DNA of 64,000 nucleotides from Dictyostelium discoideum (lineage: Eukaryota): NCBI GenBank assembly GCA_000004695.1, contig CM000150.2:2176001-2240000 (forward strand). The letters are read 5' to 3'. Of this stretch, positions 47,501 to 49,600 are shown piece by piece. Position 1 is the first letter of the stretch; each line of letters starts with the position of its first letter. Position numbers: made by a program.

Positions 47501-49600
47501 TCAATTATTCAAGTTTCAACCAATTATTCATTCACTGATATTAGATTTGAATCATGTATAATTGATCAATACAATTCAAATAATTCAATGATTGAAATTA
47601 ATAAATTAATTAGTCAAGATTTAATATTACCAAATAGTCATTTAAAAATTAATAATTCTCAAATTTCAAATATTCAAATTGTTAATAATGCATCATTAAT
47701 TTATGCAATTAATACAATTATTGGTATTTTTCAAACATCAGTTATCAACGCAACTAATGTTCAAAGTATTATTGAAATTTCATATGGTCAAAATTTAGAT
47801 GTTGAATATTCAGATTTCTCAAATGTGAATAGTGTTTATGGTATTTTCAATGTTTTAAATACTCAAGTCTCAATTGGTGATGGTAATTTCAATAATAACA
47901 TAGCAACAAATGGTGCATCAGTTTTAACATTTACATCAAATGTCACTAGTGTATACAATGCTGGTGTTGCTCGTTGCAATTTCAATGAGAATAGTGGTAC
48001 TGATGGTGGGGTTTTCCAAGGTGTAAATACAGATTCAAGTTTGGAAGATTACAGCTCAAGTATCACCAGTTGTACTTTTTCAGGTAGTAGTGCAAATAAT
48101 GGTGGTGCAATCTTTGTAGATAATATACCTCTTTCAATTGTTAATTGTCAATTTAGTGATGTCACTGCAAATGTTGCTGGTGCATTTGTTTATAATAGTA
48201 ATAATCATTTTGCAATGACAAATGTTACATATACTGAAAAATCATTAAATACTACAAAAACAAAAACAGCAACAACATCTGGAATTGAAGAATATGCTAT
48301 TTATATTTCAAGTTCAAGTGGTTCAATACAAAATGCTACATTTGATGATAATAGTTATTCAATTTTTTGTAATACTTCAACTGTTAAAATTGATGCAACC
48401 TCTAAGGTATCAACATTTACTTGTGCTCAGTGTAATATGGTTTTAGGTCAAAATCAAATTTGTAGTGTTGGTGGAAGTTCAGTTTCAAGCTCAACTTCTG
48501 CTTCTGGTTCAAGTTTGTCTGTAAGTAGTAGTGGTGCTCAATCATTAACTGTCACTTCAACAAGTTCAACTCCTCAAACTTCTGGTACAGGTTCAAGTTC
48601 AAGTACAAGTTCAAGTACAGGTTCAAGTACAAGTTCAAATTCTCATACTATTATTACTACCACAACAACTGGTGTATCTAATCAATTATCACCATCATTT
48701 TCAATTTTAATTTTCATTATTTTATTATCATTACTTTTAATTCAATCATTTTAACTTTTTTTTTTTTTCTTTTATCATTTTTAAAAAATAAAATTTCCAA
48801 TTCAATCAAATAATAAAGAAAATTTAAAAACTAAATAAAAATTAATTAGCATAATATTTAACCAATTTTTTATTTTTTTTTTTGTTTATTTTTGATAAGA
48901 CTTTTAAATATAAATTTTAAAAAAAAAATAATTGTGAAATTAAAACAAAATTCAAAAACAGTATAGATTAATAGGGTTGTTCGAATAATAAAAAATTTTT
49001 TTAAAAAAATTAAAAAAAAAAAAAAAAAAAAAAACCCCAAAAAATTAAAAATAAGATATTAGGGTTTTTCATGATGAAAAAACCCAATAACTTTTTTTTT
49101 TTCCAATCAATTTTTATAATATAAAAAAAAAAAAAAAACTAAAAAAATATCTTTTTTATAATAGCGCTATTATGCTTTTTTATTAAAATTAATTATTTTT
49201 TTTAATTTTTTATTACATTTTTGAAAATCAAGCAATGGCGATTTTTGGTTGGCCCCATTTCCATAAAATTTGATTTTTTTTTTTTTAATTTTTTATTACA
49301 TTTTTGGAAATCAGGCAATGGCGATTATTTTTTTTTGGTTAACCCCCTTTTTTATTTTAATCACTTAAAATTTTAAGAGTTTAAAATAAAAAATCAAAAA
49401 TTTCTATTTTTTTTTTTTTTTAACAAAATCCTTAATTTTAATTTTAATTTTTTTTTTTTATTTTTTATTTTTAAAGAGATAAAATGCCCCAAAATAAAAG
49501 TCAAACAATAAAACTATCTCATTTTTTAAGAGATAATCTTCTTAACTATCCAGTAAGTTCAAATAAATTTATTTATTTATTTATTTATTTATTTCTTTGT

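What the first reader, a model, noticed from the sequence alone, without database searches (positions are those of the whole stretch)
49203..49380. Conserved, internally duplicated upstream element shared by both sacsin-like copies
A motif of about 90 bp (catttttggaaatcaggcaatggcgatt...ggttaacccc...ttttattttaatcacttaaaattttaag) is relatively GC-containing against a poly-A/T background. It occurs twice in tandem upstream of copy 1 and once upstream of copy 2 (58745..58875). Conservation of non-coding sequence at this level in Dictyostelium intergenic DNA suggests a functional promoter or cis-regulatory module, or possibly a small non-coding RNA.
Basis: seen in the sequence. Interest (0 to 1): 0.5.

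Follow-up and report, generated by a model that had tools for sequence, protein, structure and literature searches.

The report
Duplicated promoter flank of sacsin-like genes
The repeated motif is real, but it is only the most G/C-containing part of a roughly 570-bp upstream flank that was copied with a sacsin-like gene in a recent tandem duplication; it probably includes the promoter, and it is no better conserved than silent coding sites.

Summary
Block A (CATTTTTGGAAATCAGGCAATGGCGATT) lies at 49216-49243 and 49299-49326, inside an 83-bp tandem duplication (49193-49275 / 49276-49375, 91% identical). It recurs at 58775-58802, upstream of gene copy 2. Each copy is followed by a poly-T run, GGTWACCCC, and a CTTAAAATTTTAAG palindrome.

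The window is D. discoideum AX4 chromosome 1, downstream of DDB_G0268846. The element is not an isolated conserved island. Homology between the two 5' flanks runs from about 48919/58549 to the ATG, as part of a ~9.6-kb tandem gene duplication.

The element differs by about 15% between copies, against 8.5% at four-fold-degenerate sites. Conservation therefore gives no evidence of constraint.

The same blocks precede all five sacsin-like gene starts recovered from three related genomes. They are weakly retained in D. dimigraforme and undetectable in D. citrinum and D. firmibasis. In 198 kb sampled, the element occurs only upstream of sacsin-like genes.

There is no Rfam hit, no stable fold, no covariation and no strict DUSE, so a small RNA is unsupported.

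The best reading is ordinary promoter-proximal DNA, possibly with TGGAAAT-type factor sites and a poly-T-defined start site, inherited by duplication. Interest is low.

The parts
48919..49107 (+). Distal part of the duplicated 5' flank of sacsin-like copy 1, homologous to 58549-58721. It marks the left edge of the ~9.6-kb tandem duplication unit.
   Evidence: A composition-aware local alignment scores 65 against a shuffle maximum of 30.
49193..49275 (+). Repeat unit 1: a T-rich leader, block A1 (49216-49243), GGTTGGCCCC (49247-49256) and ATTTCCATAAAATTTGA (49257-49273). The last piece carries an inverted TGGAAAT core.
   Evidence: D19; I5.
49276..49375 (+). Repeat unit 2: a T-rich leader, block A2 (49299-49326), a T9 tract (49328-49336), block B GGTTAACCCCC (49337-49347), and the start of block C.
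   Evidence: Unit 1 against unit 2 is 91% identical.
49348..49393 (.). A 46-nt near-perfect A/T-rich palindrome centred on block C, CTTAAAATTTTAAG (49364-49377).
   Evidence: (I1: 23-nt arms, 91% complementary, no spacer).
49407..49431 (+). A T15 tract followed by AACAAAATCC. This junction is a second candidate transcription start and is conserved in several paralogues.
   Evidence: applying the rule from PMC3371697 that the start site lies about 2 bp after a sense-strand poly-T tract.
49484..49552 (+). Exon 1 of sacsin-like copy 1 (MPQNKSQTIKLSHFLRDNLLNYP), followed by a GTAAGT intron. Exon 2 starts at 49775.
58549..58721 (+). Distal part of the duplicated 5' flank of copy 2.
58775..58867 (+). 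The copy 2 element: block A (58775-58802), a T28 tract (58801-58828), block B GGTAGCCC (58829-58836), and block C CTTAGAATTTTAAG (58854-58867).
   Evidence: Block A is 24/28 identical to copy 1.
59139..59207 (+). Exon 1 of sacsin-like copy 2.

Best explanation
The motif is the G/C-containing, and therefore conspicuous, part of the 5' flank of a sacsin-like gene on D. discoideum AX4 chromosome 1. A ~9.6-kb unit was duplicated in tandem, so both gene copies carry the flank by descent. That unit holds about 570 bp of upstream DNA, the ~8.6-kb gene and its 3' flank.

The flank already contained an internal A-B-C / A-B-C duplication. That duplication is intact in copy 1 and decayed in its first unit in copy 2.

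Functionally it is most likely the promoter-proximal region (inferred, not shown). Sense-strand poly-T tracts end at GGTWACCCC and at AACAAAATC, which are the expected positions of transcription starts in this organism. The repeated TGGAAAT-type cores of block A and the palindrome of block C are candidate transcription-factor sites.

Shown here: the duplication origin, the extent of homology, the divergence levels, the restriction to this gene family within the sampled DNA, and the lack of RNA signals. Inferred: promoter activity, the start-site positions and factor binding.
For: - Source: the window is AX4, because the 581-aa ORF at 47009-48754 is 100% identical to DDB_G0268846.
- Duplication: collinear homology runs 49280-54506 against 58754-64000 and 48919-49107 against 58549-58721.
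- Gene identity: the sacsin assignment rests on PF25794 hits and the RELIQNAEDA / GNFGLGWNSVYHITD motifs.
- Other genomes: the same A / poly-T / B / C blocks lie 115-365 nt upstream of the ATG of every sacsin-like gene start recovered from three other D. discoideum-complex genomes (L001 x3, L002, L003).
- Specificity: the nhmmer profile hits only these sites in 198 kb, with E from 2e-20 to 7e-11.
- Age of the two-unit structure: it also appears in L001b, with remnants in L002 and L001c.
- Candidate starts: poly-T to GGTWACCCC and poly-T to AACMAAATC junctions recur across copies. They fit the rule that Dictyostelium start sites lie about 2 bp after a sense poly-T tract (PMC3371697).
- Partial retention: the A2-B junction is the only upstream segment alignable to D. 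dimigraforme (collinear, z=6.1, shared 14-mer GATTTAACCCCTTT), at 35% four-fold divergence.
Against: - No transcript data were available, so the start site and promoter activity are untested.
- No TATAAA(A/T)(A/T) box lies about 29 bp upstream of either candidate start.
- The distance from block A to the ATG varies from -154 to -363, and the A-B spacer varies from 0 to about 28 T.
- The element is not more conserved than four-fold sites: 15% against 8.5% for copy 1 against copy 2, and a mean of 27% (MAFFT, inflated by register shifts) against 10.7% over all pairs.
- It is undetectable upstream of the single-copy orthologue in D. citrinum, the closest outgroup at 27% four-fold divergence, and in D. 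firmibasis.
- Copies whose large exon is interrupted (L001b, L002, L003b) mostly keep the element. That fits simple lack of time to decay.
Confidence: 0.7

Rival explanations
1. The element is a neutral relic. It has no function of its own and is shared only because the duplication and the lineage splits are recent. It stands out because complex G/C-containing sequence decays by substitution, while the surrounding A/T homopolymers change quickly by slippage.
For: Divergence in the element is at least that at four-fold sites. The whole flank is homologous, not just the element. It is absent from D. citrinum and D. firmibasis. It is retained next to apparently disrupted gene copies. Block D, nearer the ATG, is deleted in copy 1 and duplicated in copy 2, which shows the flank tolerates large changes.
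Against: Some promoter must lie in this 730-bp intergenic region, and the element occupies its gene-proximal half. The A2-B junction survives in D. dimigraforme at 35% neutral divergence, while the rest of the flank is unalignable. Block A-like cores recur in several copies within one flank.
Confidence: 0.22
2. The element is a small non-coding RNA gene, or a promoter-associated RNA driven by a DUSE-type promoter.
For: In copy 2 and L001a, a DUSE-like CCCACAA lies about 60 nt upstream of a TGTG-like box (AACTGTG / TGTGATT) inside block A. [quoted passage not shown] The B-C segment is bounded by poly-T tracts on both sides.
Against: No Rfam family reaches the gathering threshold, and only noise appears at E<=10. 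ARAGORN finds no tRNA or tmRNA gene. Sense-strand folds are less stable than shuffles, with z from +1.3 to +1.7. RNAalifold gives -0.92 kcal/mol, 5 A/T-rich pairs and no compensatory change. No strict DUSE is present in 6 of 7 flanks, and none in copy 1. The Class I CTTACAG motif is absent. An internal T6-T7 run directly after block B would terminate Pol III. The A-B spacer length is highly variable.
Confidence: 0.03
3. The element is a fragment of a dispersed repeat or transposon (a MITE or solo LTR) that landed upstream of the ancestral gene.
For: Its G+C is higher than the surrounding intergenic DNA, and it is internally repeated.
Against: In 198 kb of Dictyostelium DNA, on both strands, the profile and the core 16-mer hit only sacsin-like 5' flanks, apart from one 2-mismatch chance match at 21728. 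The only inverted repeats are A/T palindromes.
Confidence: 0.03
4. Block A is a non-coding first exon ending in a 5' splice site, with a 5'-UTR intron running to the AG just before the ATG.
For: AG|GTAAC in copy 2, AG|GTAGT in L001a, and G|GTGATT in L003 and D. dimigraforme. A conserved T-rich stretch plus AAAG(AG)ATAAAATG lies before the start codon.
Against: The donor is not conserved. Copy 1 has GGCAAT / GCGATT, L001b has GCGATT and L001c has GAGATT. No transcript evidence is available.
Confidence: 0.02

Closest known systems
Dictyostelium Pol II promoter architecture: a sense-strand poly-T tract ending about 2 bp before the start site, with TATAAA(A/T)(A/T) at about -29 (Chang et al. 2012, PMC3371697)
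   Same: The element lies on the sense strand within 105-365 nt of the ATG. It is interleaved with poly-T tracts (T9 and T15 in copy 1, T28 and T12 in copy 2), and their 3' ends abut sequences conserved across paralogues.
   Different: No canonical TATA box lies at -29 from either candidate start. The start site itself is unknown.
G/C-containing upstream regulatory boxes of Dictyostelium genes, such as G-box/CAE elements and the actin UAS (from general knowledge of the field; Kimmel & Firtel 1983 and Hori & Firtel 1994, as cited in PMC3371697)
   Same: These are short islands of complex, G/C-containing sequence in an otherwise >90% A/T flank. They are repeated within one promoter.
   Different: No match to a named factor site was established. 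The sequence (TTTTTGGAAATCAGG..., GGTWACCCC, CTTAAAATTTTAAG) is specific to this gene family within the DNA sampled.
DUSE / TGTG-box promoters of Dictyostelium ncRNA genes (PMC7919456, PMC3188802)
   Same: In the copy 2 lineage, a C-rich CCCACAA lies about 60 nt upstream of a TGTG-like box.
   Different: The strict DUSE consensus is not met. It is absent from copy 1. There is no downstream RNA with a stem, an 11-nt motif or an Rfam match.
Tandem segmental gene duplication that carries the promoter with it
   Same: The repeat unit of ~9.6 kb includes the whole 5' flank. Identity along the unit is a mosaic of 78-99%, typical of tandem paralogues with gene conversion. Copy number varies among genomes, from 1 to at least 4.
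   Different: Nothing differs. This is what the locus is.

Membership tests
Tandem segmental duplication carrying the 5' flank | Collinear homology continues beyond the element on both sides, at constant spacing. | tested here: met
   49280-54506 matches 58754-64000 and 48919-49107 matches 58549-58721. Spacing is about 9.56-9.63 kb.
Tandem segmental duplication carrying the 5' flank | Divergence in the element is comparable to neutral sites of the same unit, meaning there is no excess conservation. | tested here: met
   Block A is 85.7% identical and blocks B-C are 84.9% identical. Four-fold sites between copy 1 and copy 2 differ by 8.5%.
Dictyostelium Pol II core promoter (PMC3371697) | A sense-strand poly-T tract ends about 2 bp upstream of the start site. 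| tested here: inconclusive
   Conserved poly-T to GGTWACCCC and poly-T to AACMAAATC junctions exist, but no start-site data are available.
Dictyostelium Pol II core promoter (PMC3371697) | TATAAA(A/T)(A/T) lies on the sense strand about 29 bp upstream of the start site. | tested here: not met
   The only match in copy 1 is at -364, and copy 2 has none. No match lies about 29 bp before either candidate start.
Functionally constrained cis-regulatory element (phylogenetic footprint) | Conservation exceeds the neutral expectation across species. | tested here: inconclusive
   Within the D. discoideum complex there is no excess. The A2-B junction is retained in D. dimigraforme (z=6.1) at 35% four-fold divergence. 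The element is undetectable in D. citrinum and D. firmibasis.
DUSE-dependent ncRNA gene / Class I RNA | A DUSE ([AT]CCCA[AT or CT]AA) lies about 60 nt upstream of the start site or TGTG box. | tested here: not met
   No strict match in copy 1, copy 2, L001a, L001c, L002 or L003. A relaxed CCCACAA appears only in copy 2 and L001a.
DUSE-dependent ncRNA gene / Class I RNA | A terminal stem, a conserved CCTTACAGCAA-type motif, and a covariance-model match. | tested here: not met
   No CTTACAG. No Rfam hit. Fold z-scores are positive. There is no covariation.
Dispersed repeat / transposon fragment | Copies occur at many loci unrelated to the gene family. | tested here: not met
   In the 198 kb scanned (the window plus six loci), hits occur only in sacsin-like 5' flanks. 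The full AX4 genome could not be searched with these tools.

The most novel reading that the evidence does not exclude
The C-rich box (CCCACAA-like) about 60 nt upstream of the TGTG-like end of block A is a degenerate DUSE/TGTG promoter. It would drive a short, unstructured promoter-associated RNA from the B-C segment, which is bounded by poly-T tracts. That RNA would act in cis on a fast-evolving sacsin-like gene cluster whose copy number varies between genomes.
Probability: 0.03. Interest if true: 0.5.

Novelty: new member of a known kind. Interest (0 to 1): 0.15.

Why it matters
It matters little beyond annotation. It shows that sharing of non-coding sequence between tandem paralogues in an A/T-rich genome is not evidence of function unless it is compared with neutral divergence.

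If the blocks prove functional, they would give a compact promoter for a sacsin-like gene family. The candidate sites are the TGGAAAT-type cores, GGTWACCCC and the CTTAAAATTTTAAG palindrome. That family shows copy-number variation and near-equal replacement and silent divergence among close Dictyostelium lineages.

Tried and rejected
- Rfam at gathering threshold on the whole window, and at E<=10 on both flanks: only noise.
- tRNA/tmRNA scan: none found.
- RNA folding of each unit on both strands, and RNAalifold on 6 copies: no stability and no covariation.
- Upstream ORF: ATGGCGATT... gives a 12-15 codon ORF in copy 1 only. The ATG is absent from copy 2, L001a, L001c, L002 and L003, so it is not a conserved uORF.
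- Box C/D snoRNA idea (ATGATGA at 49072): this is not conserved in copy 2.
- Palindrome significance: G/C-containing 14-nt perfect palindromes occur 10 times in the window, against 8.1 in block shuffles. The palindrome alone is therefore unremarkable.
- Global MAFFT alignments of the flanks: these misaligned the element and were replaced by local, composition-aware alignments.
- Permissive BLAST of the element: it was swamped by low-complexity hits.
- Exact-protein look-up of the window's 581-aa ORF with its stop codon included: it failed. The homology search identified the protein instead.
- Literature search for DDB_G0268846-52: nothing found.
- Relating element integrity to gene integrity: L001b has a degenerate block C and an interrupted exon, but L002 and L003b also have interrupted exons with intact blocks. 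Assembly errors cannot be excluded, so no conclusion was drawn.

Full report
**What is in the sequence**

- Block A, CATTTTTGGAAATCAGGCAATGGCGATT, is exact at 49299-49326 and has two mismatches at 49216-49243. Dinucleotide shuffles give no match at up to 3 mismatches.
- A four-mismatch copy lies at 58775-58802.
- After block A come four features:
  - a poly-T run (T9 in copy 1, T28 in copy 2);
  - block B (GGTTAACCCCC / GGTAGCCC);
  - a TTTTTTATTTTAA stretch;
  - block C, the palindrome CTTAAAATTTTAAG (49364-49377; one mismatch at 58854-58867).
- In copy 1, block C is the centre of a 46-nt palindrome at 49348-49393.
- G+C is 25-30% over 49200-49379, against 5-13% around it.
- The internal duplication is a true tandem repeat of the whole A-B-C unit. 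Unit 1 (49193-49275) against unit 2 (49276-49375) gives 74/81 aligned bases identical, with 21 nt of indels.

**Where the window comes from and what surrounds the element**

- The 581-aa ORF at 47009-48754 is 100% identical to DDB_G0268846 of D. discoideum AX4, on the 4.92-Mb chromosome. Its neighbour at 45088-46833 is DDB_G0268844.
- The next gene starts at 49484. Exon 1 is MPQNKSQTIKLSHFLRDNLLNYP, followed by a GTAAGT intron, and exon 2 starts at 49775.
- The spliced product carries RELIQNAEDA and GNFGLGWNSVYHITD and matches the Pfam SACS domain. "Sacsin-like" is therefore correct.
- A second copy starts at 59139.

**The element is part of a tandem segmental duplication**

- BLAST aligns 49280-54506 with 58754-64000 at constant spacing.
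- A composition-aware local alignment extends the flank homology to 48919-49107 against 58549-58721, scoring 65 against a shuffle maximum of 30.
- The repeat unit is about 9.6 kb and carries the entire ~570-bp 5' flank.
- The "motif" is therefore not an island of conservation in unrelated DNA. It is the part of a wholly homologous flank that is easiest to see, because it contains G and C.
- Other blocks of the flank are shared too. Examples are AAAACAAAATCAAAAA, GTCACTGT.AAT.AGC, AACAAAATC and ATAATTTACATTAGTATTTCT.

**Is it conserved more than neutral DNA?**

It is not, at the divergence available.

- Between copy 1 and copy 2, block A is 85.7% identical and blocks B-C are 84.9% identical.
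- Four-fold-degenerate sites of the 3.6-kb exon differ by only 8.5%.
- Over all pairs of the seven D. discoideum-complex copies, element divergence averages 27%, against 10.7% at four-fold sites. The element figure comes from a MAFFT alignment and is partly inflated by register shifts.
- Coding identity along the unit is a mosaic of 78-99%, which suggests gene conversion. Even against the most diverged coding segments, the element shows no excess conservation.

**Related genomes**

Homology searches and exact-protein look-ups recovered six loci.

| Locus | Genome | Sacsin-like copies |
|---|---|---|
| L001 | D. discoideum ACTFIR | at least 4, in tandem |
| L002 | D. cf. discoideum ACTFIZ | 1, syntenic |
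| L003 | D. cf. discoideum ACTFIY | 2 |
| L004 | D. citrinum | 1 |
| L005 | D. dimigraforme | at least 1 (locus ends inside the gene) |
| L006 | D. firmibasis | at least 1 (locus ends inside the gene) |

- All five sacsin-like gene starts in L001-L003 are preceded by the same A / poly-T / B / C arrangement, 115-345 nt from the ATG.
- L001b also has both A1 and A2. L002 and L001c keep remnants of unit 1. The two-unit structure therefore predates the paralogues.
- An nhmmer profile of seven copies finds only these sites in 198 kb, on both strands, with E from 2e-20 to 7e-11. It gives nothing significant in L004-L006.
- Pairwise local alignment detects one collinear match. L001c -218..-173 aligns with D. 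dimigraforme -222..-175 at z=6.1, including the shared 14-mer GATTTAACCCCTTT.
- Four-fold divergence from AX4 is 0.27 for D. citrinum, 0.35 for D. dimigraforme and 0.42 for D. firmibasis.
- The footprint evidence is mixed. The A2-B junction is the only upstream piece surviving in D. dimigraforme, yet the closer D. citrinum has lost or replaced it.

**RNA hypotheses**

- No Rfam family matches, either at gathering threshold on the window or at E<=10 on either flank. No tRNA was found.
- Sense-strand folds are less stable than shuffles, with z from +1.3 to +1.7. The antisense strand gives +0.5 for copy 1 and -1.4 for copy 2.
- RNAalifold on six copies gives -0.92 kcal/mol, only the five-pair A/T hairpin of the palindrome, and no compensatory change.
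- The strict DUSE consensus ([AT]CCCA[AT]AA in PMC3188802; about 60 nt upstream of the start site or of the TGTG box in PMC7919456) is absent from copy 1.
- Copy 2 and L001a have CCCACAA about 60 nt before a TGTG-like box. The Class I CTTACAG motif is absent everywhere.
- A T6-T7 run immediately after block B would stop Pol III.
- A small structured RNA is not supported.

**Most likely mechanism**

- Chang et al. 2012 (PMC3371697) showed that Dictyostelium genes start about 2 bp after a sense-strand poly-T tract, with a TATA box at about -29.
- In these flanks, two poly-T ends are conserved in context: poly-T to GGTWACCCC (block B) and poly-T to AACMAAATC. Either could be the start site.
- No canonical TATA lies at -29 from either.
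- Block A occurs two or three times per flank, including an inverted TGGAAAT core at 49257-49263 (I5), and block C is palindromic. These are the usual signatures of factor-binding sites. No named factor could be assigned.
- I conclude that this is ordinary promoter-proximal DNA inherited by duplication. The origin is shown, and the function is inferred from position.

**Verdict**

This is a real repeat with an ordinary explanation. It is a new, uncharacterised example of a known kind: a gene-family promoter flank copied by tandem duplication. Interest is 0.15.

Noticed in passing
window 50283-53918 vs 59847-63460; L001-L003: Among sacsin-like paralogues and orthologues of the D. discoideum complex, divergence at codon positions 1+2 (4-12%) is about equal to that at four-fold sites (6-16%). 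This implies dN/dS near 1, meaning relaxed or diversifying selection. Identity along the duplicated unit is a mosaic (99% in exon 2, 78-82% around 51.6-52.1 kb), which suggests gene conversion.
   Followed up: partly
L001, L002, L003, L004 vs window 49484-64000: Copy number of the sacsin-like gene between the DDB_G0268846 orthologue and the GNT-I gene varies among genomes. It is 1 in D. citrinum and ACTFIZ, 2 in ACTFIY, at least 2 in AX4 (the window ends inside copy 2), and at least 4 in ACTFIR.
   Followed up: partly
window 58989-59026 and 59075-59112: A separate 86-bp-period tandem duplication lies in the copy 2 flank. The repeated block D is ATAATTTACATTAGTATTTCTAWTATTTTCCATTAA. It is present once in L001a, L001c, L002 and L003 and is deleted from copy 1. 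The ATG-proximal flank therefore tolerates loss and gain of conserved-looking blocks.
   Followed up: partly
window 58733-58802; L001 818-884: A DUSE-like CCCACAA lies about 60 nt upstream of a TGTG-like box (AACTGTG / TGTGATT) inside block A. [quoted passage not shown] It occurs only in the copy 2 lineage, and no Class I features lie downstream.
   Followed up: yes
window 45088-46833 and 47009-48754: Two adjacent 581-aa ORFs (DDB_G0268844 and DDB_G0268846) are 65% identical and have no Pfam domain. They are tandem paralogues, conserved as a pair in L002, D. citrinum and D. firmibasis. In D. dimigraforme a minus-strand gene is inserted between them and the sacsin-like gene.
   Followed up: no
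L001 10001-16160; L002 8915-17358; L003 7911-16510: These sacsin-like copies are split into 3-4 gene calls, and their large exon has frameshifts or stops (the longest open stretch is 331-634 aa, against about 1200). They are either pseudogenes or homopolymer errors in the assemblies.
   Followed up: partly
window 49565-49650; L002 ~8700-8870; L001 16400-16535: Long microsatellites interrupt intron 1 and the 5' flanks: (TTTA)n in AX4 intron 1, and (ATT)n / (AAT)n of more than 130 bp in L002 and L001c. They account for most of the variation in spacing between the element and the ATG.
   Followed up: no
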